From positions 1 through 64,000 of IMG/VR virus record IMGVR_UViG_3300044675_005263: a stretch of 64,000 nucleotides of DNA, one strand, 5' to 3'. The stretch is from a virus. The position numbers and the translations under genes were made by a program. Position 1 is the stretch's first letter. Every line of letters starts with the position of its first letter. The notes beneath the pieces were generated by a model. That model searched no databases, was not told the origin of the DNA, and saw only the letters and a list, made by a program, of their open reading frames with translations. Positions 31,675 through 50,833 of the stretch are shown here, in pieces.

Positions 31675-31721
31675 TATCTCATTGGGGCAGGGAGTTCCAA
31701 TACAGACAAAGGGAGAAACAA

Positions 31722-31982
31722 ATGTCATATGGAGTTTCAATTACAGTAAAGTATTCAGAGACAACATCAACAGGAACAATCACAAAAGAAACGAACTACC
31801 ATTTCCACGTTGATACCGCATCAAATGCAAGCGATCTAATTACTAAGACCGCATCAAATGCAAAGGGTATGAACGCAAAGGTGGAGAAGGTAGAGGTTAC
31901 CGAAGAGAACCCATACTCTTACGAAAACCCATACCGCAATCTTACAGACGGCGAAATCTTGGAACTTCTCCTAACCAAGTAA
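31722..31982 (+). CDS. Hypothetical protein (start MSYGV)
   Basis: AAGGGAG RBS, promoter upstream, terminator downstream. Confidence 0.75.
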   Translation: MSYGVSITVKYSETTSTGTITKETNYHFHVDTASNASDLITKTASNAKGMNAKVEKVEVTEENPYSYENPYRNLTDGEILELLLTK

Positions 31983-31994
31983 CCGCAAAGAACT

Positions 31995-32030
31995 AACCCC
32001 CCTGACTTCCCTCGGGGGGGTTTTTCTTTT
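31995..32030 (+). terminator. Intrinsic terminator with CUUCCC loop
   Basis: AACCCCCCTGA-CTTCCC-TCGGGGGGGTT then T-run. Confidence 0.8.
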
Positions 32031-32074
32031 CCCGACACGCCGTAAAAGCTTTTTTCTTTCAATTTTACAAAAGT

Positions 32075-32093
32075 CAGGAAGATAGGCTACACT
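32075..32093 (+). promoter_or_regulatory. Early-type promoter CAGGAAGA-N5-TACACT
   Basis: Repeated promoter family. Confidence 0.7.
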
Positions 32094-32145
32094 TTATCTA
32101 AGCGGTTAATCACAGGGAGAACACCGCACAACAAGGGAGAACAAA

Positions 32146-32523
32146 ATGAACAACAACGACACAATGACAATCACAAAGACTTTCACAGTCGGTCAACTAT
32201 GGGAGGCAGTTTTCGGTTCTGACGGTTCAGGAATTGTCTACTGGTCTCCAAAGATCCGCAAGCAAAATGGACACGGCATTGACCTATGGAAGACAGTTGA
32301 CGGAGAACTTCAACCAAACCCACAAGATTTCAAGATCTGGGATATCGAAGAAAACAAGTGGCACTTTATAACCGTAGAAGACCTCCGCACAGGTTTTGAG
32401 AAGGCTTTAATCGCAAACCAAACCCACTGCGGTGGATACCCTCTAGACCTTGAAGATTATGACGCTTGCTTCTGCGATATGGTTATCCAATACGCAGTCT
32501 TCGGAAAACTGGTTTATGGCTAA
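32146..32523 (+). CDS. Hypothetical protein
   Basis: AAGGGAG RBS; C-terminus D..D.VIQYAVFGKLVYG. Confidence 0.8.
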   Translation: MNNNDTMTITKTFTVGQLWEAVFGSDGSGIVYWSPKIRKQNGHGIDLWKTVDGELQPNPQDFKIWDIEENKWHFITVEDLRTGFEKALIANQTHCGGYPLDLEDYDACFCDMVIQYAVFGKLVYG

Positions 32524-32537
32524 GAAACTCCCGCAAG

Positions 32538-32568
32538 AAACCCCCTGAGAAATCGGGGGGTTTTTTGT
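32538..32568 (+). terminator. Intrinsic terminator
   Basis: CCCCCTGA-GAAA-TCGGGGGG then T6. Confidence 0.8.
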
Positions 32569-32589
32569 TGGGCGTGTCGTTGATTAAGT

Positions 32590-32608
32590 CAGGAAGAAGG
32601 TTTATAGT
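32590..32608 (+). promoter_or_regulatory. Early-type promoter CAGGAAGA-N5-TATAGT
   Basis: Repeated promoter family. Confidence 0.7.
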
Positions 32609-32653
32609 TTTCCTAGTGGTTCAGGGAGAACCGCAGGAAGAAAGGGAAAGCAA

Positions 32654-32743
32654 ATGTTAATAGCCTCAATAGCAATAGTTGCAGGGATTATAGGAACTGC
32701 AATCGCTTTAATTCAAGACCCAATCGAACAAGAAAGGAAATAG
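32654..32743 (+). CDS. 29-aa membrane peptide
   Basis: AAAGGGAA RBS; MLIASIAIVAGIIGTAIALIQDPIEQERK. Confidence 0.55.
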   Translation: MLIASIAIVAGIIGTAIALIQDPIEQERK

Positions 32744-32747
32744 GGAA

Positions 32748-32888
32748 ATGGCAAAAACTGTAGAACTAGTCAACAGCAAGACAGTCGAACAAATAACAAA
32801 ACAACTTCTAGAGGCACTGTCAGAAGGCAACACCGCAAGGGCTGAACTTCTAGAAATGTGGCTAACAGAATTAAAGAACTCTAAGTAA
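32748..32888 (+). CDS. 46-aa hypothetical protein
   Basis: MAKTVELVNSK..., purine-rich RBS, terminator follows. Confidence 0.6.
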   Translation: MAKTVELVNSKTVEQITKQLLEALSEGNTARAELLEMWLTELKNSK

Positions 32889-32899
32889 ATCCGTCAAAC

Positions 32900-32941
32900 A
32901 AAAAACCCCTCAACCGTAAAGGTTGGGGGGTTCTTTGCTTT
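32900..32941. terminator. Bidirectional terminator between convergent genes
   Basis: A6-CCCTCAACC-GTAAA-GGTTGGGGG-TTCTTT. Confidence 0.75.
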
Positions 32942-32946
32942 CAGAA

Positions 32947-33222
32947 TTAAGAAGATTTTCTTCCTTTATCAACCAAAGCAAATGCTTCGTCAATTTCTGC
33001 CGTAGTTAGTTTTCCGTCTGCAAGGTAGGCACGAGCCAAAGCCTCTAAGACAGTAGCAACACCAAGAGCACCCGCAAGGGTTACTGCTTGAGTTAATTCA
33101 ATACCAACAATAGAACCAGCGCCGATCACTGATAATCCTGATGCAGCGAAAACCGCAATGACTCTAGAGACAATCATTTTAGTTTTCTCGAACTGCTTAT
33201 TCTTTATTTCCTTTACTGCCAT
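32947..33222 (-). CDS. Small membrane protein (holin-like)
   Basis: Two hydrophobic helices, DGKLT..EIDEAF tail; start MAVKE after AAAGGA. Confidence 0.6.
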   Translation of the reverse strand: MAVKEIKNKQFEKTKMIVSRVIAVFAASGLSVIGAGSIVGIELTQAVTLAGALGVATVLEALARAYLADGKLTTAEIDEAFALVDKGRKSS

Positions 33223-33331
33223 AAGTGCTGTGTCCTTTCTATGTTCACACTTAGGCGCTAGAAATACCAACGCCCAGCCTCTCAATTTTACTTGAGCGAC
33301 TGGGCGCTGATCAGAATTGGAGAGGTAGCTA

Positions 33332-33754
33332 CTACGCTCCAACTCCTACATCTAAACCATCAAAAAGATATGCAAGGACTGCTTCATCAAAGCAACCGCA
33401 CTCCTCTAAGCCTACTGACTTGCGATAAGCGTTGATAGCCTCAACACTTCCTGCTCCTAGTCTGCCAAACTTATCTCTAACAACTGCGTCAAAACCTAGA
33501 TCTTTTAGACGCAACTGAACAGTCTGAACAGAAGAAGAGTTGCCAGCCATAGCGTTAACCTTAAGAGCAGAAAGAGAAATAATTGTGTTTGCTTCTCTCT
33601 TTACCTTTGGTGCTGACTTGCTTTCCTTCTTTACTTCTTTGACCTCTACAACTTTAGGCTCTTCTGCGAGCGCAGGTGTTGCCTTAGGCTCTTCCGTAGG
33701 TGGTTCCATAGGCTGAAACATTGAACCTACTAGGGGTCTGAGTTCTTGGCTCAT
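33332..33754 (-). CDS. Peptidoglycan-binding domain protein
   Basis: VQTVQLRLKDLGF..G.LG..SVEAINAYRKSVGL resembles PG_binding_1. Confidence 0.6.
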   Translation of the reverse strand: MSQELRPLVGSMFQPMEPPTEEPKATPALAEEPKVVEVKEVKKESKSAPKVKREANTIISLSALKVNAMAGNSSSVQTVQLRLKDLGFDAVVRDKFGRLGAGSVEAINAYRKSVGLEECGCFDEAVLAYLFDGLDVGVGA

Positions 33755-33759
33755 TTTTC

Positions 33760-34335
33760 CTACTTTCCTTCGGGGAACTTCTTAAGCCACATTTGAAACC
33801 TAGGTTCCGCCGTAGCACTATTATAGTCGCTCTTTGATATCTTCCAAGCGGAGAAATCTTCTCCACCCTTGCTCATATGGTGAGCAATCTGAGCATTAAC
33901 TACTGGATTGAAAAGGTCTGAGTTTGAGTCAAGCGAGAATTTAATTCTGCGCTCCGGGCCTAGGTCGCCAATCATATTGATCTGATAGACACCATAGGAA
34001 CTATCGCCTGTCTTTGCGTTGCCATTGAAGGCAAGCGGGCGACCATTAGACTCCTTCTTTGCAATAGCCCACGCAATGCGAAGAGCCTTGCCTTCAAAGC
34101 CTACGGCAATGAGAAGGTCTCTCAACTCTGTATCTGTAAGAGAGGTCTTGTTCTCAAAATCTGAAAGCTTCGGTTTTACTTCTACTACTATTGGTTCTTG
34201 AATTACAACTGGTTTAACAGGTTCCATTTGCTCTGGACTCTGCGCTACTGCTATTGCGGTAGATGCTAGAACTACTGTCAAAGACATTAGCGCTATCAAC
34301 TCTTGCAAATGGCGTTGCTTAAGAGATTGCCTCAT
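33760..34335 (-). CDS. Secreted lysozyme-like / lytic transglycosylase
   Basis: Signal-like N-terminus; AIAKKESNG, SYGVYQIN, LFNPVVNAQIA, FSAW. Confidence 0.8.
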   Translation of the reverse strand: MRQSLKQRHLQELIALMSLTVVLASTAIAVAQSPEQMEPVKPVVIQEPIVVEVKPKLSDFENKTSLTDTELRDLLIAVGFEGKALRIAWAIAKKESNGRPLAFNGNAKTGDSSYGVYQINMIGDLGPERRIKFSLDSNSDLFNPVVNAQIAHHMSKGGEDFSAWKISKSDYNSATAEPRFQMWLKKFPEGK

Positions 34336-34789
34336 TTGGGTTCCTTCGTTTGGGGACAGGGACAGGTTGCTCGACTTGCCAACCTTGCTAACCCACTTGG
34401 GGGTGAGCCTTACTTCAAGTGTCTAATCCGTAGATCTCCTTACGTCACTTGTCTTGCTTGAATAAACTATACCGCAATGTCAGGTTAATCCGACACTGAT
34501 TTAGCCTACCAAACTAGGATTTATTTCACACCGTGAGCGTAAAAGCCCTGCTGATAGCCTTAAATCTATAATAAAACCTAAATGCTCCATAAAAAATGCA
34601 GGGAGGTGAGTTTTTCCCCTCCCCGCACCTTAAAGCTTTAGCGTTTCTCTCTAGCGGATAGAGTTGCTGATGCTACTGAGGTTAGACCAAAGGCGAGCGC
34701 CATTGAGTCATTACCTTGATAACCTGCCACGAGGCAAGCCACTCCAAGGGCTAGGGAGATTACTGCTGTCCAAACTATGTTCTTTGTAT

Positions 34790-34984
34790 TCATATGCTCA
34801 CTCTCTTATCAGGTCTAGTTCTGCCTACCAAACGAGCAGAGGGGTCTCTAGCGACCACTCCAGCCCCGTAGACAGCCTTTCTAGCGGTTCGGTAGGCAAC
34901 GCCTAGTTCTTTGGCTACTGCCTCTAGAGATAGCCCACTTTCGTAAAGGCGGACTGCCTCTTCTGTAATCTTTTCGATCTTCAT
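34790..34984 (-). CDS. HTH DNA-binding protein
   Basis: LYESGLSLEAVAKELGVAYRTARKAV. Confidence 0.75.
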   Translation of the reverse strand: MKIEKITEEAVRLYESGLSLEAVAKELGVAYRTARKAVYGAGVVARDPSARLVGRTRPDKRVSI

Positions 34985-35160
34985 TACTTAGTTACTCTCT
35001 TTTCTTTTAGTAGTTCGGCTTGGAGAAATCTAATCTTGTCGTTCTTTTGGTTGATGACTCGGTGCAACTGACCCTGCGCTCTAATACCAACAACCATAAC
35101 AAAGCAAGAGCCAGCGAGCGCAATTACTATTCCAATCAAGGTTCCCGTATCTAAATACAT
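34984..35160 (-). CDS. Small membrane protein (start MYLDT)
   Basis: GGGGTAAAAATG start context; one TM helix. Confidence 0.65.
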   Translation of the reverse strand: MYLDTGTLIGIVIALAGSCFVMVVGIRAQGQLHRVINQKNDKIRFLQAELLKEKRVTK

Positions 35161-35162
35161 TT

Positions 35163-35354
35163 TTACCCCCTCTCTTTTATAGTGTAAGCAAAAGTAAAGA
35201 CAGAGAAACAACCAACCCAATCGCCCCACCTTTTGCCAAAGTGAAAGGTTCTCCAGTTAGTAGCCACAATGTTAAGCCAAAGGGTATAGCGACCAACCCC
35301 AATAGTTAGATGAGCTAAGTAAGTCGGTAGCCCAAAGCCAAGATCAAACATCAT
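35163..35354 (-). CDS. Hypothetical protein
   Basis: GGGGTAAAAAATG start context. Confidence 0.6.
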   Translation of the reverse strand: MMFDLGFGLPTYLAHLTIGVGRYTLWLNIVATNWRTFHFGKRWGDWVGCFSVFTFAYTIKERG

Positions 35355-35357
35355 TTT

Positions 35358-35591
35358 TTACCCCTCGTATTCGGCTCTTATTAGTTGTAGTTCCTCGTCA
35401 ATGCGCTGTTGTTCTTCGGCACGAGCGTAATACTCGATAGCAATTTTGTCGTAAGCGTTTTTTATTAGTTCTAGTTCATAACCTGTCGGCTTCCACTTAC
35501 GAACTTTAGGGTGTCGAAATGTTGCTAGCATAACCGCATAGAGTTCGTCATCACTTAGCAGAATTGGTTGAGGTTTTCTAAGTCTAGGCAT
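35358..35591 (-). CDS. Hypothetical protein
   Basis: GGGGAG RBS. Confidence 0.7.
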   Translation of the reverse strand: MPRLRKPQPILLSDDELYAVMLATFRHPKVRKWKPTGYELELIKNAYDKIAIEYYARAEEQQRIDEELQLIRAEYEG

Positions 35592-35603
35592 TTGCTCTCC
35601 CCC

Positions 35604-35759
35604 TTATGGATACAACAGGTCTAGGCAGAATTGGTTCATCTGCTCTGTTGGAACTTTGCACATTTCAGGTGTTGTAGCGTCCATAGCCCAAGCGAACAGA
35701 GCCAACAAGATAACTGCAACTGCGATACGGCGTCTAATAAACTTTGCTTCTGTTTTCAT
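35604..35759 (-). CDS. Small membrane protein (start MKTEAK)
   Basis: AGGGAG RBS; promoter at 35800-35818. Confidence 0.65.
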   Translation of the reverse strand: MKTEAKFIRRRIAVAVILLALFAWAMDATTPEMCKVPTEQMNQFCLDLLYP

Positions 35760-35837
35760 CTTCTCCCTGCTTCCTTTGGCTCCCTTAGCCAATAAGTAAA
35801 TACTAACAGACCTTCCTGCACTTTGCAACTTCTCTAA

Positions 35838-36053
35838 CTATTCGGCGTGTTGCTTCTGCTTCTCGATAGTTAGACGAGCCATAGCCAAGAGTTCCTCGAA
35901 ACTTCTAGGGTCTTGATTGAAACACTCCCACGATTGAGCAAGAGTTATTGAGTGAGGCTTTGGCTTTGCTACGGCACTACTTCTATTTCCACCCTTGCGA
36001 CCCTTTAGACTTTTTACAGTTCCCAAGATTGCGCTATCAGGTAATCCCCACAT
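35838..36053 (-). CDS. Hypothetical protein
   Basis: RBS and promoter at 36086-36104. Confidence 0.65.
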   Translation of the reverse strand: MWGLPDSAILGTVKSLKGRKGGNRSSAVAKPKPHSITLAQSWECFNQDPRSFEELLAMARLTIEKQKQHAE

Positions 36054-36172
36054 TTTGTTTTCCTTTCCCTATTCCCTATAAATAAATAATAACAGACCTT
36101 CCTGCATTTTGCAAGTATCGGCATAAAATAAAAGTGGAGAGGAGCGCCCTTGCGAGCGCCCCTCTCAGAGCG

Positions 36173-36412
36173 TTATGCGAGTATGTCGCACTCGGCTGAC
36201 TGTCGGTCTTTCAAGTATTCAGAGCGTTCCTGCTCTGTCTTGAATTCCCAACCAATCATTGCGACATCTGTGTGTCGCTTCTTTTTTGAGTCTTTAGTGT
36301 GTTTTTGAAATTCATCGTTAGCGTAGAGCTGTTGCTCGTGCCACTCGGTGAAATACCAACTACCGACCCAACCACAAACACAAATGTGTTTGACGATCTT
36401 TCCGTATGAAAT
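36173..36412 (-). CDS. 79-aa hypothetical protein with apparent ATT start
   Basis: Open frame ISYGKIVKHICVCGW... 7 nt after GGGAGG; promoter at 36459-36477. Confidence 0.5.
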   Translation of the reverse strand: MSYGKIVKHICVCGWVGSWYFTEWHEQQLYANDEFQKHTKDSKKKRHTDVAMIGWEFKTEQERSEYLKDRQSAECDILA

Positions 36413-36458
36413 TTTTTTACCTCCCTACTGTCGGCTCCCTTTCCGACCTAGTAAAACA

Positions 36459-36540
36459 ATCTTACCACACCTTCCTGCATTTTCCTAATCACGGCGTGTC
36501 GTAGGCTCAATTAGGTTTTGTCAGGAAGGTGTGCTATAAT
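36459..36540. promoter_or_regulatory. Divergent early promoter pair flanking a GGCGTGTCG box
   Basis: CAGGAAGG-TGTGG-TAAGAT (minus, 36459-36477) and CAGGAAGG-TGTGC-TATAAT (plus, 36522-36540). Confidence 0.75.
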
Positions 36541-36581
36541 AGGATTACCGAACAAGGGAAACGGTAGAAGGGAGAAAACAA

Positions 36582-36773
36582 ATGCCAAAGTTTGATGTTG
36601 AAGTTTCAAGCAAAGGTTGGGGCGACCCTAGATTTATTCTTATAGATGTCGCAAACGCTATCCGCAAGGCTGGCGCAACAACTGAAGAACAAGACCAGTG
36701 GTTTAACGAGGCTACCTCGGGCGACTCTGAAAATGTTCTTCGCACCGCAATGAAGTGGGTGAAAGTCGCCTAA
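36582..36773 (+). CDS. Hypothetical protein
   Basis: AAGGGAG RBS; EATSGD..VLRTAMKWV C-terminus. Confidence 0.8.
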   Translation: MPKFDVEVSSKGWGDPRFILIDVANAIRKAGATTEEQDQWFNEATSGDSENVLRTAMKWVKVA

Positions 36774-36897
36774 CTGATTGAGGGCAAGGACTTCCCCCCT
36801 TGTCCTCTCTCGGCGACACGCCAAGAAAAGTAAATGCAAGAAATGTCAGGAAGGTATGTTAGACTTACTACAACAAGCCAAACAAGGGAGAAAGAAA

Positions 36898-37005
36898 ATG
36901 GCTAAGAAAGTTCAGATGATTTTTATTCATTGTTGGAAGTGTGGTCGTAGGTTTCAGATTGCAGAGCGTGATTACAACCACGGCGCAGTTTGTGAGGATT
37001 GCTAA
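36898..37005 (+). CDS. Small Zn-ribbon protein (MAKKVQ; CWKC..CEDC)
   Basis: Promoter 36847-36865, AAGGGAG RBS. Confidence 0.6.
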   Translation: MAKKVQMIFIHCWKCGRRFQIAERDYNHGAVCEDC

Positions 37006-37202
37006 TGATTAGGTGGAGCAAAGCCGAAGTGGATAATCGTTTGGGGATTATGTCCTCGAACGGAAAATACTTTATAAGCGCAAGAGGCTGGCTTGCTGGT
37101 GGTGTCCTAAATTGGTTCCTCTATGATTTTAGTGATAACACTTACCAAGACGGATTTCGCTATCAAAGAGATGCGAAAGCATTTGCAGAGGAATTAGGTT
37201 AG
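37005..37202 (+). CDS. Hypothetical protein
   Basis: TAATG coupling. Confidence 0.6.
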   Translation: MIRWSKAEVDNRLGIMSSNGKYFISARGWLAGGVLNWFLYDFSDNTYQDGFRYQRDAKAFAEELG

Positions 37203-37768
37203 TCTCGGTATTGAGTCAAGAGGTAAAAAGGTTCCGCAGTCTTGTTATCAAACTTAGAAGAAACGGCGAGCGCAGTTTTGATCGTAGCTCTTGCAGTTGT
37301 GAGAGTTCTATTCTTGCCCTCTGATAAAGCATTGAGCGCACCCAAAGCAAAGTCCGCACCTGAACCTATCGCATAGAGACCAGTCGTATCGTGGCACCAA
37401 GAATAATCTTCGCCTATCTCATAGATAGTTCCATTTATTAAAACCATAATCTGACTTTCTTGGTCGCCATCTTTTGAGTAAGAGGCTTCTTCAAAACATT
37501 TTTTTAGTTCGGGGATAAACACCGCAGTCATAAACTTATCTAGTTTTACTCCTAGAGTTGATCCTGTGCAAGGCGGTGCCTTAAAAACGTGAGTCATTAA
37601 GTTGATAGCTCGAACATCTCCCGCAACACCTAAAACATAATTACCACTCTTAAAAACTTTACCTGAGTCCTTCGGCAAGACATAAGTTCTGCCATCTTCT
37701 TCGGTAACTCTTGAGTCATAACCAACAACAGCCCAGCCATCACCTTGAACGCTCGCTATTGTTGTCAT
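37199..37768 (-). CDS. Proteasome-beta/HslV-like Ntn threonine protease
   Basis: MTTIA N-terminus, DSRVT, K, AIGSGADFALGAL. Confidence 0.8.
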   Translation of the reverse strand: MTTIASVQGDGWAVVGYDSRVTEEDGRTYVLPKDSGKVFKSGNYVLGVAGDVRAINLMTHVFKAPPCTGSTLGVKLDKFMTAVFIPELKKCFEEASYSKDGDQESQIMVLINGTIYEIGEDYSWCHDTTGLYAIGSGADFALGALNALSEGKNRTLTTARATIKTALAVSSKFDNKTAEPFYLLTQYRD

Positions 37769-37780
37769 AGTTTTTACCCC

Positions 37781-38892: not shown

Positions 38893-38964
38893 TTTTTAAC
38901 TCCCTAGTTCTCCAGCTCCCTGCTGGTGTCTTAAGTGTAACACATCTTCCTGACTTTTTCTTCC

Positions 38965-39219: not shown

Positions 39220-39274
39220 TTTTTTACCCCTCTTGTCGGTTTAGGTCTAGCTTATCTGATCTCTATAATAATTC

Positions 39275-39380
39275 AAAATAGACACACCGCACCCTTGCTA
39301 GGGAGAGCAAGGGACGGTGCGATAAGCACAAGTGCTTATCTCAACGGGGAGCAGAAAGGGAAGTTCGCTCGACCCGGTGA
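39275..39380 (-). ncRNA. Candidate three-hairpin small RNA with UCCCU loops
   Basis: TGA-TAAGAT -10 at 39385-39393; three contiguous stems; U-rich end; no convincing ORF. Confidence 0.6.
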
Positions 39381-39419
39381 TCTAATCTTATCATAATCGG
39401 TGTAACTACTTTTTTACCC

Positions 39420-40780: not shown

Positions 40781-40850
40781 CTTTTCCCTTTTCTCTCACT
40801 CCCTTAGTGAGTCCCTTTGAAAACCAAGTTTATCATACCTTCCTGCATTT

Positions 40851-41529: not shown

Positions 41530-41533
41530 TTTT

Positions 41534-42379: not shown

Positions 42380-42546
42380 TTCTCCCTTTCTTACTAGCCG
42401 TCTTGCTAGTGGAGCAAGCCTATCATACCTCTCTGCACTTTCATAATCGAACCGCTTCCTGGATCCTTTTTTACCCCTGCCCCTTGCCAAAAGAAAAAAC
42501 CCCCACCTTTCGGTGAGGGCTTTTGCCTTGCTAAGTAATAGGGAGA

Positions 42547-42942
42547 TTACTTTGCGGTTAGGACAGGATACTCCGTAGTCTTTGCTACCAAGTCAAAAAT
42601 CTCTCGGTAGTCATTGAACAAAATATCTCCGTCAAAATCGGTGCGTTCCCTTAGGTCAATCTTGACTCGTTCCTCGCCAGCGACAAGCCCAACTTCTGCT
42701 TCGCCAACCCACTTATCTTTCTTATTGACCTTTATTTTTTCCCAACCCATAAGGGCGTAAATCTCTGCCTTGATTTTTTCCAACTCGGCAGTTTGCGCTG
42801 AAATCGTTTCAGAAATAGTTTTCTTTTTTGCGATTAGAGCGAGGACATTAGTTTCATCTAAAACTACTGCCTTCTTTGTTGTTGTTGTTGTTGCTACTGA
42901 CTTTACTTCTACTACTTCGTATGATACTTCGGTGTTAGCCAT
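42547..42942 (-). CDS. Coiled-coil hypothetical protein (start MANTEV)
   Basis: AAGGA RBS, terminator downstream. Confidence 0.7.
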   Translation of the reverse strand: MANTEVSYEVVEVKSVATTTTTKKAVVLDETNVLALIAKKKTISETISAQTAELEKIKAEIYALMGWEKIKVNKKDKWVGEAEVGLVAGEERVKIDLRERTDFDGDILFNDYREIFDLVAKTTEYPVLTAK

Positions 42943-43062: not shown

Positions 43063-46000
43063 TTATTGAGCCTCTGCGTGTTCGTAGAGTCCAGTATAGA
43101 TAATTACCTGACCTTCATTATCGTAGTCATATCCCACTCTTTGAGATAGGGCTTCTACTAGGTATGAGGTAGAGATAGCCCAGCGTGAGAACGCATAGCC
43201 AATTCCCCCACCAATAATCATCATCAGTAAAGTGAAACCATTGAAAAACATTTTTACCTCTTTCCCTTCGTCATTTGGTATTGCTAGGCAAGCCTATCAT
43301 ACCTTCCTTCAATTTTCGACAATCTCCACCTCAAACTCGGTAGAGCGTGCAAGGTCGTGTCCATACTCGTTTTGTAGCCAATCAAGGGCTTTTACCTCTG
43401 CCTCTCTTTGAGTATCGGCTTCTAGCTCCGTTCCAAAATGAGATACATAAGTAGCCTTCCAACTCTTACTCATTTACAACCTCATTTACTAAATCAACAA
43501 AAAGTTCGGCGGCATCACTCTGAAAACTCCACTCGCCGTCATCATACTTAGCAACAACTTCTCCCCATTGAGTATCCGTTAGTTCTTTCAGTTCGTCAGT
43601 TTCGTGGTCGTAGGCATAGTCCTCTACCGTTTCCTTATCCCAATAGGCGACTATCAACTCTTGCTCGCCGTCATACGCTTGCAACTGCTCAACCAAGTCT
43701 TTGACCTTCATGCCGTTACTCCCTTATCTTGATCCGTTTTTACCCCCAGCGTGTCTCGCCGTGTAGGTCTAGGCTCGTGTGCGGAGTTTGTTCCATCCCA
43801 TCCGCACACATCACCACCCGTTAGGTCTACCCACCAGCCAGCCTTATCTAGCCGTATGCCGTAGCCACAGAACTTGCATAGTCTCATTAGTAAGAGGCTC
43901 CTAGTTTGTCGGGATTATTTACTGCGTATTCCACGCCGTTATCGTATCCAGCATAATAAAGACTCTCTAGCCGTTCGGCTAGAACCTTTACCGCCTTATC
44001 CATATCGGACATGCTTGCCTCGAAATACATTATTTCCTCGGCTTGTTCTTTTACATCTTTACGAACTTGTTTTTTTGTTCTCATCTTTGTATCACCTCCG
44101 TCATTTGTTGAGCAAGTTTATCATACCTTTTGATTATTCTGTATCTTTTTCTTGACGGATAACATTTACTGCGTTCATAAAAGTTTCTGCTCGAACTTGA
44201 TTGAAAACAAAGTCGTTCGTCCAAAGTCTAAGAAACCTTATCCATTGTTCTTCCGTGATTTCATATCCGAGTTCAGCTTCGACATCTGACTTACACCAAA
44301 CGCCCCAATGAACAAGTTCATTTGGGTCAAACTCCTGAGCAATAAACTCAGCAACTTGATCAGCGGTGAGGAACTCAGCATCTTCTTCTAGTTCTTCATC
44401 ATCTATCTCTATGTTATTTTCATCTTCCATTTTTTATATCACCCCCTTTTTTTCATCTCAGTTTTACCCCTAGTTCGTGCCGACCCAAGTTATCTAAAGT
44501 TTCTTGGGCAATCTCGATAATCCGTTCTAGGATTTTCGGAGAAATCATATGTTCCAACACGACAGGCTCCTCGCCTTCTGTGTGGTCATGGACAAAGAGA
44601 ACAACATTTCCTGCTTCCGAATAGCCGAAGCCAATCGGATAGGTAGAGGTCATAAAATCTAAGTGCATGGTGTTATCAGACATTGGTGCTATCAGGGTTC
44701 CCTTTGGTAGAACCTGCTTTTTGACTTTTGCCATTTGGCTTTTTCCCTTCGTCATTTGTGGAAGTATCATAGCAGTTTTAGTGGTGGAAATCCACCGCAA
44801 CCATAAATTGTTTTTTTGGGTCTTTCTCAATGCGCTCGTGTAGGTATTGCAGATTTGCGGTGCCAGCCTCTAGGTCAAACATGGCACTATCGTAAGTCCA
44901 GTAGTCGGCAAGTGTTGAGCCAATGGTTCGCAAGTAATGACCGTCCATGCCTAGATTATAGTTATTGACTATGGGTTTGTAATCGGCAATTAGATCAGAA
45001 ATGTTCTCTCTACCTTCTAAGTAAGACAACGCTCTTTTCATATTGGCAACTCGGTATTCAGAGAACTCTTTTATCACTTCGTTCCACTTCTCAGGGTCGT
45101 TAGAATAAAGAATTACATCTGGCTCTCCTTCTCCAAAGAGTCCAGAGAAACGCCCACCTATCTCAGACCAATCAGACCAACTTGCCTCATCAAGTCTGCT
45201 ACCAACTGCGTCAATAGCGTCTTGGTGGTTCTCAGCTTCAACAAAAATCAACTGCACACTATGAGACATTTTTACCCCTACACCTTTCCCCAAGAACGGG
45301 CTTCGGTGTAAGGCTCTGCAACATACTCAGCCCACTTGATTAAATCACGGGGAAACTCACATAGGGCTTCTTGCTCTGCCAACTCTATCGCTTCGTCCTC
45401 TGTGTTGGCTTCGACTTCATAATAAATGTTGTTGTCCTCTGAGAGATACCCTCGCACTATCCATTTCTGCTTTTCCATTTTTACCCCTCTTGTTCGCTTT
45501 GTTCTAAGTTGGAAATGATTTCCTCAGGCGACATAAAATCTAAAAGGTCTAGGTGTGAAGTAAGTTCTACAACTTCGCACTCTCGGCACTCCTCTATTCT
45601 TTCCAGCCTTCTCAGCAGGGCTTCATCTCTTAGTGTTAGTTCCAAACCTTCCTCTATCTTGGAAAAAATAACTCTCATCTGTAAATGAAATCTTTTCATA
45701 TAGTCCAAAGAATTTTGGTATAACTCATTTGAAACTATGTCGTTTTCTTTGAGAATTTTCTCGTTGATTTTGCAGGTAGGTATCCACACAGTTTCATTAT
45801 CTATGATTAGTTGATAGCCATCATCAGAAGTTTTCTTTGAGATAGGTTCGTAACTGTGTCTGACTCTGCTAACTGCCATGCTGTGAATACGAGTTCTCTT
45901 TTTCATTTTCTCCCTTTCGTCGTTTGATAAAGCCGAGCCTATCATACCTTTCTGCTAATCCAAAACTAGAATTGCGTCTTTCTGCAAAATAGGTTTTCCC

Positions 46001-46849
46001 TCGTTCTCAATGTCGCAAACATTTACTATGTGTTCAGCGACAACCACCTTCGCACTTTCTACTGCTTCGTCAATGGTGTGGGTAACTTGATCTAAATGGT
46101 TGCCATTTTGGTAGAGGTCAAACCAGTTGTTATGCACCCAGTAGTAATCCTCATCGTCGTGGGTTGCTTCAAGCTTCTCGTCCGAGTCTAAGTCCGAGCG
46201 TATGAAATCATTTGGTGAGCAGAGGTCATAGTAGTAATCCTCACCCGCTTTGTATTTTAGGTGGGTATCCCCGTCAGCATAAACATCTACTTGGTATCCG
46301 TCTATCTCTATGCTTGCAACCCAACCACGGTCAAAGAACACGCTCTCTGTCCGTTTAGGGTGAGGTGTTTCGTTATAGACAATCTTGTATTCATACAGAC
46401 CCGACTCCACGGTTTTACCCCTCGCCGTTTGCTTGCCGTAAGAACTCGCCAATCTTGTCCGATAGGTCATAGTCAAGATCAACTTCGGCAGGGTCGTCAA
46501 AGTTAGTAGTTCTCCAAACCCCCTCACCAGTTTCAAGGTTGGTGTATTCATAGACCACGCCGTCTTGGAAGTGTGCGTTTAGTGTTTCGTCCTCGGCACT
46601 CCACTTCTTTGTTTCCGTGTTGTATGAAAGTAGAAAATGTATCTCTCTCATTTTTTACCCCCGCTCAATCGAATAAACGAGTTTAGTTAAATCTATGCTA
46701 TCTCTCTCGTCAGGGTGTATTAACTCTGCCCACTCATCTCGGCAATCAAGGCAGACCCAATCAATCCAATCCGAGCCTGTATCTATTACTAGGCAGTTCT
46801 CGGTATCGCACTCACGGCAAGTCAAGCCGTGAAAAACTCTTACCTGCAT
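43063..46849 (-). CDS. Run of 13 small, mostly acidic ORFs (43063-43251, 43309-43473, 43466-43711, 43708-43887, 43887-44084, 44134-44430, 44453-44734, 44778-45269, 45278-45478, 45481-45906, 45955-46410, 46415-46651, 46655-46849)
   Basis: Head-to-tail ORFs with RBS or overlaps; no family recognised. Confidence 0.65.
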
Positions 46850-47140
46850 TTTTTCCCTTTCTCTCTTTGTAGCCCAACCCTATCATACCTATCCAAATAA
46901 TCATAGTAGGAACTCTGAATTATTTTTTCCTAAATGCACTCCTGCACCTCACGCTCAAAAAATTAAAAAAGGTGGCGGTCTGCCCGGAAGTAATAATTCA
47001 CACTTGCCGTAAAGCTTCACGATCAAAATTTACCCCCACAAAGTGAAAAGCCCCACCGAGTAGGTGAGGCTTCTCTAGTTTCTAATCGGGGCGACACATG
47101 CTGGGAAAAATACATACCCAATTAGAAATCCTATTCTAGG

Positions 47141-48919
47141 TCAAGCGACCTGCCTTTGCCCTGCGGTTGAGAGGACTCGCTCTGCGGTTCGCCCAATAGC
47201 CAACGCCGACTCTGTGGGGCTGGTAATCCCTGCCACCACCTGAGCATTTACGCCCTTGCAGAGATACTCTGCCTGTGCGCCTGAGTCGCCAATCGGAAGC
47301 CATAGAACTGCTACGCCATTTCGGGTGCAAGCCTTTAGCCAACGCTGAGCCAATTCGCTTTCCTCAGGTGTGTAATGTCCGTCCGACACAACCACGAGTA
47401 AGCGAGCGCCAGTTCCATTGAGAAGGTTGAGTGAGCCGTCCAATGAACGAAATGCTCGGTCGAACTTTTCAGTTCCGTCAGGTGCAGAATAAACTGAAAC
47501 TTCTTTTAGTCGCTGACCTGCTTTGAGTGTTGGGAAAACATCTGAGCCGTAATAAACCATAGCGCATTGACCCTGAACTCTACGAACTGCCTCAGACATA
47601 ATCCATGCAGTAGAAGCCATTGGTTGCATAGCACTAGACATTGACCCTGAAATATCAACCATTACTCCAACTGTGAGTGTTGGTTCGTCTGTGTGCTTGC
47701 GAACTGTTTTGCGAAAAGCCTCTGCTTGCTTATGAACTCCACGAGAAGCAAGTGCCTTGCTCTGAATAATTGCACGAGTGCGTAATCTCCCCGGAGGTGT
47801 AATGCTATTTACTTCTGTAATGTCCTTCTCACGATACTTTGCCTTTTCCAATGCACGAGCAATCTTTACTGTCGCACTTCTTTCAGAAGCAATAGGCGCT
47901 CTTTTCTCAATCAACTTAGAGGCAGTTCGGAATTCTCCGGGACCTGAACTCTTTGAGAATACTTGACGAGAGATTTCCTCATTTTTCTTTTGCTCTTTAG
48001 AACTCATTGACTTCTTTTCAGCAGACTCTTTCATAGCCTCTGAACTCTGTTGCTCTGATAAATCATCTGCAACATTTTCAGAAACTTCTGAGTCCATGTC
48101 TGCCATGAGTTCGCTCATCATCTTTGCGAAGGCTTCCATTTCCTCAGGAGTAGGTTCTCCCTTTTCTTTCTTTGCTTCTCTTACCAACTCAGCCCACTCA
48201 ACTGCTAATGGGTAGCAAGGAGAAATATCATGGTGGCGAGTGTGGCTTTGGAACTTCTCAATAATCGCAACCAACTTCGCAACTAGGTCAGCACCTAGAA
48301 AATCATTTACTTGCTTGATTAAATCTGTCGCTTCTGTTTCTAGTAATGACCCTGCAACGATACGAGCATGAGCCAATCCCACCAACTGGCAAGCAGACCC
48401 AACGCTAGAATTCTCTGCAAAAGTTTCTTTCGCTTCGTCAATAATTAAACCCATAGCACTTGCTCGTAGAAAGTTCTTTGCTCTAGGCATAGCAATAATT
48501 CCCTGTGCCTCAATGCGACCTTCCTCTAATAACATCAAAGCCTGAAACTCATCTTGCTTTAGGTCTTTAATTCCCTGAGCCATATCCCAAGTAGAAAACT
48601 TTGCGTGGAAGGCTTCGTGCATAATCGCACCAATCGCTTTTGGAAACTCGAATTGGTTGCGTGGCTTTGTAAGGTCGTCAATCAGATTAGGTGTAATACC
48701 TTCTCCAAAAGCCTCAATCGTATTTACCTGCACCTCAGCAAGTGAAGGGATAAAGCAAGCAGGTGCGCCTTCACCTTTGTCTGTGCCAATGCAAGCAACA
48801 ATGTCGCTTCGCTCAGACCACTCATTAACGAGCAATCCAATTTCGTATCCAACTGGTAGCCACTCAGTAGGTGTCTTGACCCCTGAGCCTTTTGTTTCTA
48901 GTGGCTTAATGTGTGCCAT
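47141..48919 (-). CDS. CobT-like VWA protein with N-terminal HExxH domain
   Basis: HEAFH..LEEGRIE, MIDAS DISGSMS, VVSDG. Confidence 0.8.
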   Translation of the reverse strand: MAHIKPLETKGSGVKTPTEWLPVGYEIGLLVNEWSERSDIVACIGTDKGEGAPACFIPSLAEVQVNTIEAFGEGITPNLIDDLTKPRNQFEFPKAIGAIMHEAFHAKFSTWDMAQGIKDLKQDEFQALMLLEEGRIEAQGIIAMPRAKNFLRASAMGLIIDEAKETFAENSSVGSACQLVGLAHARIVAGSLLETEATDLIKQVNDFLGADLVAKLVAIIEKFQSHTRHHDISPCYPLAVEWAELVREAKKEKGEPTPEEMEAFAKMMSELMADMDSEVSENVADDLSEQQSSEAMKESAEKKSMSSKEQKKNEEISRQVFSKSSGPGEFRTASKLIEKRAPIASERSATVKIARALEKAKYREKDITEVNSITPPGRLRTRAIIQSKALASRGVHKQAEAFRKTVRKHTDEPTLTVGVMVDISGSMSSAMQPMASTAWIMSEAVRRVQGQCAMVYYGSDVFPTLKAGQRLKEVSVYSAPDGTEKFDRAFRSLDGSLNLLNGTGARLLVVVSDGHYTPEESELAQRWLKACTRNGVAVLWLPIGDSGAQAEYLCKGVNAQVVAGITSPTESALAIGRTAERVLSTAGQRQVA

Positions 48920-49146
48920 GTCTTTTGTCCTTTTCCCTTTTAGTTTTGTATCGTGTGTCTAACGATAGGTCTATCATACATTTTTATTTATCTATATGCA
49001 ACTTTAGGTCTATCTGTGTCTAGGTCGGAAGGTGTGAATTTTGATCGTAGGACTCAAAGCTTCCCCTCGCTTTTACCCCCTTTGGTTATGGTGAGGACTC
49101 CACCCATGAAGCCCTCACCCAACCAAGTCAGCAATCTAATAGGGAG

Positions 49147-50205
49147 TTAGATTTTCGCTGGCTTATGCTCAGCGCCATAGGCACGAGCAATAACATCAAC
49201 CACCACATCTCTATCTAACTCAGGTGCGCTCGCAATCAAGTTAGCGATAGCAAACTCTGTGCCAAATAGTTCGGCAGTAGAACGGAAAGCAAGCAACTCT
49301 CTCATCTGAGGCGACCAAGAAATCTCGGCGCTATCGCCCTGAGTTCTCTTAAACAAGTTCTGAGCAACGCTCACCATTGTCTTTGGAACTCCCAACTTCT
49401 CAGCCAGTTTCCAATCTGTGGTGAGTTCTGCCTGAATTGCAAAACGAGATAGCAACGCTTCTGAAAGTCGAACTCCCGGAGCGTTAGGGTTGGTTGCACC
49501 CACTACGAAAAAGTTAGGGTGGATTTTGATAGTTCCTCTATCAGGGTTCATTGGAATTGTGAATTCCTTTCGTCCGTCCATAGCACCATAAGCAAATGAA
49601 AGAACTTTAGGGTCAATCAAACCAATTTCGTCAATCAAAAGTGGTTCGCCATTTTCTACTGCCTTTGTAAATTCTCCGTCAATCCACTCAAAGTTTCCAC
49701 TAGGTGTCTGAACGAAACTTCCCAAGAAATCTGAAACTTCTGTATCTCCACTTCCAATAATTGTGTGGAGAGTTTCATCAGCAAATGAAGCCTCAATGAG
49801 TGCAGTTTTTCCAGTTCCCGGAGCGCCATAGAGAAGGACGAACTGTGGGTCGCCAACTCCTTCTGAATTGTATTTTGAGGTGGCTTCTCTCGCTTTGCGG
49901 AGAACTGCTATGTCCTTATGAATTCCCCATTGGCGAGTGAAATACTTTTGTCCATTAGGACGAACATAAAATTCGTCAGCCTCGAAAGACTCGACATTTA
50001 CTTCACTAGGACTCATAGCACCAACTCTCTCTTTGGCTTTTCTGTCTGCGCCACTTGCTCGCTCAACGAAACGACCATTAGGTAATACTTTTGCATTTAG
50101 TCGGAGTGAAGTTTCCTCATGCACATTTTGCACTATGCACTCTGAAACGATATTCCAAAAGTCGCCCCCAATAGAAGCCAAACTCTCTTTGATAATTGTA
50201 TCCAT
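49147..50205 (-). CDS. MoxR/CobS/CbbQ-family AAA+ ATPase
   Basis: GAPGTGKT, LLIDE, IHPNF.VVGATNP, LSEALLSRF. Confidence 0.85.
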   Translation of the reverse strand: MDTIIKESLASIGGDFWNIVSECIVQNVHEETSLRLNAKVLPNGRFVERASGADRKAKERVGAMSPSEVNVESFEADEFYVRPNGQKYFTRQWGIHKDIAVLRKAREATSKYNSEGVGDPQFVLLYGAPGTGKTALIEASFADETLHTIIGSGDTEVSDFLGSFVQTPSGNFEWIDGEFTKAVENGEPLLIDEIGLIDPKVLSFAYGAMDGRKEFTIPMNPDRGTIKIHPNFFVVGATNPNAPGVRLSEALLSRFAIQAELTTDWKLAEKLGVPKTMVSVAQNLFKRTQGDSAEISWSPQMRELLAFRSTAELFGTEFAIANLIASAPELDRDVVVDVIARAYGAEHKPAKI

Positions 50206-50217
50206 TTTTATTGCCCC

Positions 50218-50673
50218 CTAAGCAATCTCAACAGGAAAGCCCAATGCTTTTCTGCTTTGGTTGATACGATAAACAACCTTGATAGGTGTTTCTCCCTTTG
50301 ATACTTCTGCCAAATCCTTCTGAGAAGTTTCGACTAGAAATGGCTCATTAACAATAGTCCAACCACCTTTAATAAAACCCTCGAAAATAGAAGTCAGATT
50401 TTCTATGCGCTTCTCAATGTAGGTTTCTCTATCTGAGTCAGCCAAATCCTTCACGCCAATTTCAGCGAGTTCTGTGGCTGGTCGTAGTGTTGTAGCAGAC
50501 CACAACTTCTTTGGTTTATCAGCAGATAACATGCGACGATAAACCTTTGCTGGAACTGGATTTCCTTCGGGAGAAAATCCGTCAGGAGTCATAAAGAACT
50601 CTGTGCGAAATCCCTCTTTAGAGAACTCAGCATAAACTGTGAGTCCTTGCACTTGCTTTGTTTTGTCTAACAT
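50218..50673 (-). CDS. Hypothetical protein co-transcribed with the AAA ATPase (start MLDKTK)
   Basis: AAAGGA RBS. Confidence 0.7.
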   Translation of the reverse strand: MLDKTKQVQGLTVYAEFSKEGFRTEFFMTPDGFSPEGNPVPAKVYRRMLSADKPKKLWSATTLRPATELAEIGVKDLADSDRETYIEKRIENLTSIFEGFIKGGWTIVNEPFLVETSQKDLAEVSKGETPIKVVYRINQSRKALGFPVEIA

Positions 50674-50833
50674 GGGTGTCCTTTCGTCGTTTCGCACCCC
50701 CAAAGTGCGATAAGGCAACTCTAGCAGAAAACATCATAGAGGCAAAATTAGCCTAAGCGTGTCGTAAAAATAGTTCTGCCCCAACGCTAAAACGACGAAT
50801 AAAAGCGTGGGGCAGAATCTTGTTTTGATCGTA

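What the first reader, a model, noticed from the sequence alone, without database searches (positions are those of the whole stretch)
31681..50817. Candidate loop-loop antisense network: AGGGA loops in 5' leaders, complementary UCCCU loops in 3' hairpins
Seen in sequence: just after the early promoters, leaders fold into a hairpin exposing AGGG(A), followed by a second AGGGA(G/A) at the SD. Examples are 31681-31701, 32102-32127, 32611-32638, 36546-36566 (plus) and 35776-35792, 36430-36447, 38912-38926, 40795-40811 (minus). Stem sequences differ while the loop is kept. On the transcribed strand, 3' hairpins expose the complement: CUUCCC (terminator 31995-32022), ACUUCCCC (36780-36807), CUCCCU (42533-42552) and CUCCCUA (49133-49153), the last two with the stop codon in the 5' arm, and UUUUUCCCA (~47080-47130). 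Inference: kissing-loop pairing, either 5'-3' within one mRNA or in trans, controls early-gene translation. Alternative from established knowledge: a loop ANGGA plus an SD ANGGA is the CsrA/RsmA operator layout, but no csrA is visible here and it would not explain the antisense loops.
Basis: partly seen in the sequence, partly recalled or inferred. Interest (0 to 1): 0.9.

Follow-up and report, generated by a model that had tools for sequence, protein, structure and literature searches.

The report
Phage messages pairing head to tail
In the early genes of an uncultured freshwater actinobacterial phage, G-rich ribosome-binding leaders are matched by C-rich hairpin loops at the ends of two of the same messages and in a small phage RNA, and the two sides change together across relatives, so the phage very probably controls early protein synthesis by RNA-RNA pairing.

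Summary
Seven of 11 testable early leaders fold into a 5' hairpin with GGG in the loop (an eighth in an interior loop), followed by an AGGGAG ribosome-binding site. Shuffles give 0.34. Relatives keep the loop on different stems.

The cited 3' hairpins exist. UCCC loops are modestly enriched (3 of 20 against 0.44, P about 0.02). Most terminators carry GNRA or UNCG tetraloops.

- **Pairing within one message.** For two cited 3' hairpins, behind the AAA-ATPase (49133-49153) and the CobT-like gene (about 47079-47128), the loop complements that gene's own Shine-Dalgarno or leader. It co-varies with it across about 20 lineages in at least 10 distinct pair types per gene (permutation p<1e-5 each). 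This resembles S. aureus icaR.
- **AGGGA leader hairpins.** They have no conserved 3' partner on their own message.
- **Likely partner in trans.** A conserved 110-nt three-hairpin RNA (39381-39271, minus strand) has invariant UCCCUU and UCCCUAG loop cores.

No CsrA gene occurs in this phage or in two complete relatives, and the predicted host class is Actinomycetia. No RNA or experimental data could be obtained.

The scan's earlier notes describe similar anti-Shine-Dalgarno phage RNAs on other DNA. I class this as a new variant of a known kind.

The parts
31681..31701 (+). 5' leader hairpin, loop AGGGA, after promoter 31656
   Evidence: The ortholog stems differ in G001 and G003/G005.
32102..32127 (+). 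5' leader hairpin GCGGU/ACCGC with a large loop holding CAGGGAG
   Evidence: Orthologs in L169/L119 have stem CGGC/GCCG with GGGA in the loop.
32616..32634 (+). 5' leader hairpin, 7-bp stem, loop AGGGA
35776..35792 (-). 5' leader hairpin, loop AAGGG
   Evidence: Kept in G001.
36430..36447 (-). 5' leader hairpin, loop AAAGGGAG
36546..36566 (+). 5' leader hairpin, loop AACAAGGGAAA (weak, -4 kcal/mol)
38912..38926 (-). 5' leader hairpin CCAGC-AGGGA-GCUGG
   Evidence: The ortholog in L169 is CUCGCU-AAGGG-AGCGAG.
40795..40811 (-). 5' leader hairpin, loop AAGGG
39271..39381 (-). Conserved three-hairpin small RNA. Loops are CUUCCCU(UUC) and CUCCCU(AG), followed by a U tail. An extended -10 promoter lies at about 39385-39396.
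   Evidence: z = -5.5; 29 pairs, 8 compensatory
49133..49153 (-). Hairpin holding the ATPase stop codon. Its loop CUCCCUA is complementary to the ATPase's own SD.
50214..50220 (-). ATPase Shine-Dalgarno UAGGGGG, which includes the stop codon of the upstream gene. It is the 5' partner of 49133-49153.
47079..47128 (-). CobT 3' structure. A long stem presents UUUUUCCCA...UGUGUC, complementary to the CobT leader.
48931..48959 (-). CobT leader blocks GACACACGA and GGGAAAA (SD), the 5' partners of 47079-47128
42533..42552 (-). Stop-codon hairpin with loop CUCCCU. Partner unknown; it is not the gene's own SD.
31995..32022 (+). Terminator with loop CUUCCC. The loop is not conserved in G003/G005.
36780..36807 (+). 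3' hairpin with loop ACUUCCCC
50775..50816 (-). Terminator-like hairpin whose loop UUCGUCGUUU complements the leader box AAACGACGAA of the next operon (50683-50692)
   Evidence: G001 has UUCGUCAUUU against AAAUGACGAA.

Best explanation
The stretch is the early-gene block of an uncultured phage of about 135 kb, of a family predicted to infect freshwater Actinomycetia. Its early mRNAs carry a private G-rich code at the 5' end. This is GGGA-type Shine-Dalgarno sequences, often preceded by a 5'-proximal hairpin that shows ARGGR in its loop.

The phage also encodes matching C-rich anti-Shine-Dalgarno loops, in two forms.

1. In cis. At the 3' ends of the AAA-ATPase and CobT-like genes, a hairpin loop is complementary to that gene's own SD or leader, so the finished mRNA can pair head to tail. 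This masks the ribosome-binding site, and in CobT also the extreme 5' end, and sets translation and/or decay, as in S. aureus icaR. In the ATPase the stop codon sits in the hairpin's 5' arm, so a terminating ribosome must open it. This would couple the switch to ongoing translation.

2. In trans. A conserved 110-nt RNA with two to three UCCC loops is perfectly complementary to the leader loops (AGGGA, AAGGG) and to the SDs (AGGGAG, CUAGGGAG). It would bind them by loop-loop or loop-SD contacts and damp or time early translation.

Shown: the structures, their conservation, the complementarity and its co-variation. Inferred: that pairing occurs in vivo, its direction of effect, and that the AGGGA hairpins are the small RNA's docking sites.
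For: ATPase. Across about 20 distinct lineages the SD and the stop-hairpin loop change together. The pairs are AACGGAA/UUCCGUU, AGGACAC/GUGUCCU, AGGACGGAA/UUCCGUCCU, AAGGGAGU/ACUCCCUU, AGGGGAAU/AUUCCCCU, GGAGACC/GGUCUCC, GAGACAG/CUGUCUC, GGGGG/CCCCC and UAGGGGG/CUCCCUA. The mean Watson-Crick run is 6.65 against 5.33 +/- 0.26 in permutations, p<1e-5.

CobT. Pairs include CGAAAGGACGAA/UUCGUCCUUUCG, CAAGAAAGGU/ACCUUUCUUG, AAAAGGACGA/UCGUCCUUUU plus GGACACACG/CGUGUGUCC, AAAGGGAAA/UUUCCCUUU, GGGAAC/GUUCCC, and UUGGAAG/CUUCCAA against UUCGGAAG/CUUCCGAA. The mean run is 8.08 against 6.41 +/- 0.25 and the duplex energy -23.2 against -19.8 kcal/mol, both p<1e-5. The complementary segments sit in loops.

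Small RNA. It is conserved in 8 relatives with 8 compensatory pairs and invariant loop cores. Distant three-hairpin C-rich-loop versions were found. In the L128 clade its loop AUCCCCUUU is the exact complement of the ATPase SD AAAGGGGAU, and that clade lacks the C-rich stop hairpin.

Other support. Early genes use GGGA-type SDs and late genes use AGGAG/GAGGA. Early ribosome sites pair better with the small RNA's loops than other genes' sites do (-9.5 against -6.9 kcal/mol, p about 1e-6). Leader hairpins are far above chance, with loops kept on changing stems. The precedent is PMC3868564, where icaR SD UAGGGGG pairs with 3'UTR UCCCCUG.
Against:
- The AGGGA motif is invariant, so its pairing with the small RNA cannot be tested by co-variation.
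- Early ribosome sites also pair better with the ordinary 16S tail, so part of the signal is simply stronger SDs.
- A cross-lineage matrix of small-RNA loops against ribosome sites did not discriminate.
- Self SD/3'-end complementarity is not general across genes.
- Sense and antisense duplex energies are equal on average, so a DNA-level inverted repeat is not formally excluded. Only the G.U pairs in this phage and in L118 favour RNA.
- Cultured Microbacterium phages with the CobT-like gene lack the feature.
Confidence: 0.6

Rival explanations
1. The AGGGA leader hairpins are 5' stabilisers or ribosome standby sites. A 5'-proximal stem-loop blocks 5'-end-dependent RNases (RNase E/J). Its SD-like loop recruits a 30S subunit, as with STAB-SD and the phage SP82 polypurine stabiliser in Bacillus. 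No antisense partner is involved. The cis pairs at the ATPase and CobT genes would then be a separate matter.
For: The hairpins start within a few nt of the predicted transcription start. The loop sequence equals the phage's own SD flavour. AGGGA and AAGGG can pair with the 16S tail with one G.U, by inspection. Early ribosome sites pair well with the 16S tail. No conserved cis 3' partner exists.
Against: This phage's purely structural hairpins use GNRA or UNCG tetraloops, so a fixed ARGGR loop implies recognition. The loops are perfect complements of the small RNA's loops but only wobble complements of the 16S tail. The GGGA flavour is confined to early genes, although the ribosome is the same for all genes. 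STAB-SD is documented in Firmicutes, not Actinobacteria (from memory).
Confidence: 0.22
2. The loop-GGA plus SD-GGA layout is an operator for a CsrA/RsmA-type or other RNA-binding protein of the host or phage, which represses early translation.
For: Two GGA motifs lie 15-22 nt apart, the first in a short hairpin loop closed by C-G. This is the classical CsrA target geometry (established knowledge).
Against: PF02599 gives no hit in this record or in two complete relatives. The nearest phages all infect Actinobacteria and the predicted host is Actinomycetia (PMC10611076), a group in which CsrA is not known (established knowledge, not tested here). This idea does not explain the C-rich loops or their co-variation.
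Confidence: 0.06
3. One reading: each AGGGA leader loop kisses the UCCC loop of the terminator of its own mRNA.
For: Units 31656-32022 and 36522-36807 have both an AGGGA/GGGA leader loop and a UUCCC 3' loop. The principle operates in the ATPase and CobT genes.
Against: Only 2 of 8 hairpin-bearing units have a C-rich 3' loop. The 31995 loop is AUCCA in G003/G005 while the leader loop is kept. The orthologs of the 32146 and 38584 units also end in non-C-rich loops.
Confidence: 0.1
4. The 5'-3' complementarity at the ATPase and CobT genes is a DNA-level inverted repeat, such as cassette ends or protein-binding sites, and not an RNA interaction.
For: Sense and antisense duplex energies are similar on average. 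One unrelated gene in the L128 clade is flanked by inverted copies of a promoter-like 16-mer.
Against: The 5' copy always covers the SD or leader, and the 3' copy always sits in a hairpin loop or large loop on the sense strand. This phage and L118 pair only through G.U wobbles, which would be A-C mismatches in DNA or on the antisense strand. The repeats are 6-12 nt and gene-specific, and no transposase or recombinase context is present.
Confidence: 0.05

Closest known systems
icaR mRNA 5'-3' UTR pairing, Staphylococcus aureus (PMC3868564)
   Same: A C-rich anti-SD motif near the 3' end (UCCCCUG) pairs with the gene's own SD (UAGGGGG, the same heptamer as the ATPase SD here). In icaR this blocks ribosome loading and creates an RNase III substrate.
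   Different: Here the motif sits in a short hairpin loop that holds the stop codon (ATPase), or in a large loop shortly after the stop (CobT), not 260 nt into a long 3'UTR. It occurs in phage genes, in two adjacent genes, is conserved with co-variation across a large family, and the host is actinobacterial. The effect on translation and decay is untested.
B. subtilis hbs mRNA 5'/3'-UTR interaction (PMC5737220)
   Same: The 3' end pairs with the 5' UTR of the same mRNA and governs RNase access. The CobT case in DSL-LC01 pairs with the very 5' end of the transcript.
   Different: In hbs the role described is control of ribonuclease action, not SD masking, and no loop presentation is described. 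Taken from the abstract only.
C-rich-loop small RNAs: actinobacterial 6C (PMC6486639), RsaE/RoxS and the RNAIII 3' domain of Firmicutes (PMC2837412, PMC3861533)
   Same: They have several hairpins with C-rich loops that bind G-rich or SD regions of many mRNAs. RNAIII uses loop-loop contacts with target hairpins.
   Different: There is no match to Rfam 6C or to any Rfam family. The RNA is phage-encoded, its presumed targets are the phage's own early genes, and the loops are UCCCU(U/A) rather than runs of six C.
CsrA/RsmA operators
   Same: GGA in a hairpin loop plus GGA at the SD.
   Different: No CsrA in the phage family. The predicted host class is not known to have it.
Start-associated sequences of Cluster K mycobacteriophages (PMC3203893)
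   Same: A private conserved tag just upstream of the start codons of a subset of actinophage genes, comparable to the AAAYGACGAAAGG box and GGGA SDs here.
   Different: I found no RNA partner described for those sequences in the abstract listed, and I did not read the paper. The sequences are unrelated.
3' CITE / 5' UTR kissing loops of plant RNA viruses
   Same: A 3' hairpin loop base-pairs with a 5' hairpin loop of the same message (from memory).
   Different: Those are eukaryotic, enhance translation, and occur in RNA genomes. Here the pairing covers the SD and so more likely represses.

Membership tests
icaR-type 5'-3' SD:anti-SD pairing | C-rich motif at the 3' end complementary to the same gene's SD | tested here: met
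   ATPase and CobT, this phage and about 20 lineages
icaR-type 5'-3' SD:anti-SD pairing | Pairing maintained by compensatory change | tested here: met
   At least 10 distinct pair types per gene; permutation p<1e-5. The lineages are not independent in a strict sense.
icaR-type 5'-3' SD:anti-SD pairing | Inhibits ribosome loading / RNase III cleavage | not testable with these tools
   Needs toeprinting, reporters, RNase assays
CsrA/RsmA operator | GGA in a hairpin loop plus GGA overlapping the SD | tested here: met
CsrA/RsmA operator | A CsrA-family protein available (phage or host) | tested here: not met
   No PF02599 hit in G000, G001 or G002. The host genome is unknown; the predicted class is Actinomycetia (PMC10611076).
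6C sRNA (Rfam RF01066) | Match to the family covariance model | tested here: not met
   No hit at E<=10 in 5 records; no Rfam hit at the locus
C-rich-loop regulatory sRNA (functional class) | Stand-alone structured RNA with two or more exposed C-rich loops, own promoter and terminator | tested here: met
   Structure and co-variation. The promoter (conserved extended -10) and U tail are read from sequence only. Transcription is not shown.
C-rich-loop regulatory sRNA (functional class) | Loops complementary to SD regions of targets beyond what any SD gives | tested here: inconclusive
   Early sites pair better than late ones, but they also do so with the 16S tail. The cross-lineage matrix is weak.
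RNAIII-rot type double loop-loop target | Two target hairpin loops, one holding the SD, each matching an sRNA loop | tested here: inconclusive
   The first GGGA is in a loop. The SD GGGA is mostly unpaired, not in a hairpin.
STAB-SD / 5' stabiliser | SD-like sequence near the 5' end that is not used for initiation | tested here: met
   By sequence only. The effect on stability was not tested.

The most novel reading that the evidence does not exclude
This phage family wires its early genes as closed-loop messages. Gene-specific 3' hairpin loops kiss the gene's own ribosome-binding site or 5' hairpin, with the stop codon built into the 3' hairpin so that terminating ribosomes reset the switch. 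A dedicated multi-loop anti-SD RNA addresses the remaining early leaders through their AGGGA hairpins. Together these form an RNA-only timer for the early-to-middle switch. It would be a bacterial-virus counterpart of 5'-3' communication in eukaryotic viral mRNAs.
Probability: 0.3. Interest if true: 0.88.

Novelty: new variant of a known kind. Interest (0 to 1): 0.75.

Why it matters
Pairing between the two ends of a bacterial mRNA is known from very few cases (icaR, hbs), each supported by experiment in one organism. Here the same design is written into two adjacent phage genes. Natural compensatory changes maintain it across dozens of uncultured genomes, which amounts to a ready-made mutational series.

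If it works as inferred, large actinophages regulate early genes by RNA-RNA contacts rather than by proteins such as T4 RegA or RegB. It would also explain why phage early genes often carry private ribosome-binding tags. And it would give a set of orthogonal SD/anti-SD pairs that could be reused as translational switches.

Tried and rejected
- Megablast of 19 kb against cultured phages gave no match.
- An IMG/VR scan with the promoter pattern returned mostly single, chance-like hits. Relatives were obtained through the ATPase protein instead.
- CsrA (PF02599) gave no hit.
- Rfam gave only sub-threshold chance hits. The 6C model gave no hit.
- Per-gene SD against own 3' end across this genome showed no general enrichment. 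The same over all candidate starts in 25 loci showed only a slight excess at runs of 9 or more. The cis design is therefore gene-specific.
- The 42533 stop hairpin against its own SD showed no convincing complementarity.
- The sense-against-antisense energy test was not discriminating.
- The matrix of small-RNA loops against ribosome sites across lineages was weak.
- The capsid search in GTDB genomes for a host found nothing.
- Microbacterium phages Pumpernickel and Zooman show no CobT 5'-3' complementarity.
- The covariance-model search of DSL-LC01 and three distant large or complete records gave no hits, but the same record behind L153 had scored E=0.009 in a locus search. The result is therefore uninformative.

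Full report
**Context.** The window is the first 64 kb of a 105-kb IMG/VR record, estimated 79% complete. It has no nucleotide match among cultured phages. Portal, capsid and tail genes, and a 4247-aa polyvalent protein, lie at 1-30 kb. The portal's best relatives are the metagenome-assembled 'Actinomycetia phage DSL-LC01' (74%), then Microbacterium, Arthrobacter and Gordonia phages. The DSL-LC01 paper predicts Actinomycetia as host by iPHoP and HostG (PMC10611076). A search with the AAA-ATPase (49147-50205, minus strand) found 45 related loci in IMG/VR. Several come from complete genomes of 134-137 kb.

**The 5' observation.** Twelve promoters of one class lie at 31656-41328 on both strands. 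They have CAGGRAGR, five bases, then TANNNT, that is, a conserved block upstream of an extended -10. Folding the leaders shows hairpins at all eight cited places, with loops AGGGA (three), AAGGG (two) or larger GGGA-bearing loops (three). An AGGGAG or AGGGAA Shine-Dalgarno follows 15-22 nt later. In MFE folds, 7 of 11 leaders place GGG in a hairpin loop. Dinucleotide shuffles give 0.34 +/- 0.58, and none of 1000 reached 7. The twelfth promoter has a different leader, about 100 nt long and structured, and was not included in this test.

Relatives carry the same promoter class and the same loops on other stems: CUCGC-AGGGA-GCGAG, UGGUUC-AGGGA-GAACCA, GUUAGC-AAGGG-GCUAAC and ACCAGC-AAGGG-GCUGGU. 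Orthologous leaders show full stem replacement with the loop kept. This is a real, selected RNA element whose loop, not its stem sequence, is constrained.

**The 3' observation.** The five cited 3' hairpins fold as described. A census of strong hairpins shows that most terminators of the block carry GAAA, GCAA, GAGA, GGAA, UACG or similar loops. In 19 3' regions, 3 of 20 MFE loops hold UCCC or CCCU, against 0.44 +/- 0.70 in shuffles (P about 0.02), and none holds GGGA. It concerns a minority of 3' ends.

**ATPase.** Aligning the 3' end of the ATPase gene in all 45 relatives shows that a small hairpin holding the stop codon in its 5' arm is kept almost everywhere. It has many different stems and a pyrimidine-rich loop. 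Setting the loop beside the ATPase's own Shine-Dalgarno, about 1050 nt upstream, shows that the two change together:

| SD | Loop |
|---|---|
| AACGGAA | UUCCGUU |
| AGGACAC | GUGUCCU |
| AGGACGGAA | UUCCGUCCU |
| AAGGGAGU | ACUCCCUU |
| AGGGGAAU | AUUCCCCU |
| AGGGAU | AUCCCU |
| GGAGACC | GGUCUCC |
| GAGACAG | CUGUCUC |
| GGGGG(G) | CCCCC |
| UAGGGGG (this phage's clade) | CUCCCUA, UUCCCUG or UUCCCUAG, with G.U pairs |

Over 20 distinct lineages the mean exact complementary run is 6.65. Permuting the partners gives 5.33 +/- 0.26 (p<1e-5), and the duplex energy has p = 0.0007. One clade (L128-132, 143, 153) has a UUUA loop instead.

**CobT.** The next gene (47141-48919, minus strand; own promoter and terminator) behaves the same way. 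A loop shortly after its stop is complementary to its own leader and co-varies with it:

| Lineage | Leader | 3' loop |
|---|---|---|
| L157 | CGAAAGGACGAA | UUCGUCCUUUCG |
| L155 | CAAGAAAGGU | ACCUUUCUUG |
| L118 | AAAAGGACGA, plus second block GGACACACG | UCGUCCUUUU, plus CGUGUGUCC |
| L125 | AAAGGGAAA | UUUCCCUUU |
| L127 | AGGGAAAGA | UCUUUCCCU |
| L126 | GGGAAC | GUUCCC |
| L151 | GAAAGGAAA | UUUCCUUUC |
| this phage | GGGAAAA, plus GACACA | UUUUCCC, plus UGUGUC |
| DSL-LC01 | AGGACAAGUAAA, at the extreme 5' end | UUUACUUGUCCU |

The mean run is 8.08 against 6.41 +/- 0.25, and the duplex energy is -23.2 against -19.8 +/- 0.8 kcal/mol, both p<1e-5.

In the L136/L139/L144 clade the 5' partner is itself a leader hairpin with a GGA or CGGA loop, and the 3' partner is a hairpin loop CCUUCCA or CCUUCCGA. 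The extra C in one loop is matched by an extra G in the other.

A third case is the terminator-like hairpin at 50775-50816. Its loop UUCGUCGUUU complements the leader box AAACGACGAA of the following operon. In G001 both sides differ, UUCGUCAUUU against AAAUGACGAA.

**What the AGGGA hairpins pair with.** They do not pair with their own 3' ends as a rule. Only two of the eight hairpin-bearing units have a C-rich 3' loop. The CUUCCC terminator loop at 31995 is AUCCA in G003/G005 although the leader loop is kept. The stop hairpin at 42533 is not complementary to its own SD either.

There I find a conserved RNA gene with these features:
- a conserved extended -10 (TGATAAGAT or TGCTAGAAT);
- three hairpins and a U-rich tail;
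- MFE z-score -5.5;
- nucleotide-level homologs in eight relatives;
- 29 consensus pairs, 8 with compensatory changes;
- invariant loop cores UCCCUU and UCCCUAG, and in relatives a C-rich middle loop as well.

A covariance model finds one copy per genome. It also finds weaker full-length matches in more distant relatives that are again three-hairpin RNAs with C-rich loops. In the clade that lacks the C-rich ATPase stop hairpin, this RNA's loop AUCCCCUUU is the exact complement of the ATPase SD AAAGGGGAU. AGGGA and AAGGG are perfect complements of the RNA's loops but only wobble complements of the 16S tail.

Early genes (31-60 kb) use GGGA-type SDs, while structural and replication genes use AGGAG or GAGGA. 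Early ribosome sites pair better with the RNA's loops than other sites do (p about 1e-6). They also pair better with the 16S tail (p about 1e-3), so this is supportive rather than decisive.

**Mechanism.** I conclude that this phage family uses SD:anti-SD RNA pairing on its early genes. It acts in cis at the ATPase and CobT genes, and probably in trans through the small RNA, with the AGGGA leader hairpins as likely docking loops. The closest experimentally established mechanism is icaR. There a 3'UTR UCCCCUG pairs with the SD UAGGGGG, blocks ribosome loading and creates an RNase III site (PMC3868564). Placing the ATPase stop codon inside the hairpin suggests that translation opens the element.

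Whether pairing represses, stabilises (as proposed for hbs, PMC5737220) or recycles ribosomes is not known. The small RNA works like the C-rich-loop RNAs 6C, RsaE/RoxS and RNAIII (PMC6486639, PMC2837412). It is not a member of Rfam 6C.

**Rivals.**
- A 5' stabiliser or standby role for the AGGGA hairpins remains plausible.
- A CsrA-type protein is unlikely.
- A DNA-level inverted repeat is not excluded by energies alone. It fits poorly with the constant SD/loop placement and with the G.U pairs.

**Limits.**
- No expression data could be obtained.
- The host is unknown.
- The lineages in the permutation tests are related, so p-values overstate independence. The argument rests on the number of distinct complementary pair types.
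- The scan's earlier notes report comparable anti-SD phage RNAs on other genomes. I did not test those.

Noticed in passing
whole genome; window 31000-60000 against the rest: Early genes use GGGA-type ribosome sites (AGGGAG, ACGAAAGGGA, GAGGGGUAAAAAAUG). Structural and replication genes use AGGAG or GAGGA. This is a sharp early/late split in Shine-Dalgarno flavour.
   Followed up: partly
window 41215-41310 (minus): The leader after promoter 41328 is about 100 nt long with a 12-bp closing stem (-33 kcal/mol). Similar sequence recurs in L120 and L169. It has no Rfam hit and could be another RNA element.
   Followed up: no
window 43251-52541 (minus) and DSL-LC01 (L170): A conserved leader box AAAYGACGAAAGG(A/G) precedes many early starts. 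DSL-LC01 has about 48 sense copies in 24 kb, each after a promoter of the form attctaaagatgttataat. It resembles the start-associated sequences of Cluster K mycobacteriophages.
   Followed up: partly
window 31656-41328: The promoter class has a conserved CAGGAAGG block at about -18 to -25, upstream of an extended -10. Weaker versions lacking the block lie at 43.3, 44.1, 46.9, 48.95 and 52.6 kb.
   Followed up: partly
window 34984-46651 (minus), many junctions: Internal genes of early operons are joined by (G)AGGGGUAAAAAAUG. The upstream stop codon UAA lies inside the next gene's ribosome site, a layout suited to translational coupling.
   Followed up: no
window 14004-26747 (minus): A 4247-aa protein carries ArdC-N, a zincin metallopeptidase, a UvrD-like helicase and RNase T-like exonuclease domains. 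It lies between the portal and head genes.
   Followed up: no
L128:12947-13519, L131:17889-18461, L133:18368-18934: A 190-aa gene just after the small RNA is flanked by inverted copies of a 16-mer, AGCAAAAAGUAAAAAA, that looks like this clade's promoter element. This may be convergent promoters rather than RNA pairing.
   Followed up: no
L118:18326-18631 (ortholog of window 39420-39725): In G001 the gene just upstream of the small RNA has the SD AGAAAGGGAA, a 10-nt perfect complement of the RNA's first loop about 60 nt downstream of its stop. The small RNA may therefore also act as that gene's 3' end.
   Followed up: no
window 42062-42145 (minus): There is a weak RsmY-like Rfam hit (22.6 bits, E=0.09, far below the gathering score) over a terminator region. 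It is probably chance.
   Followed up: no
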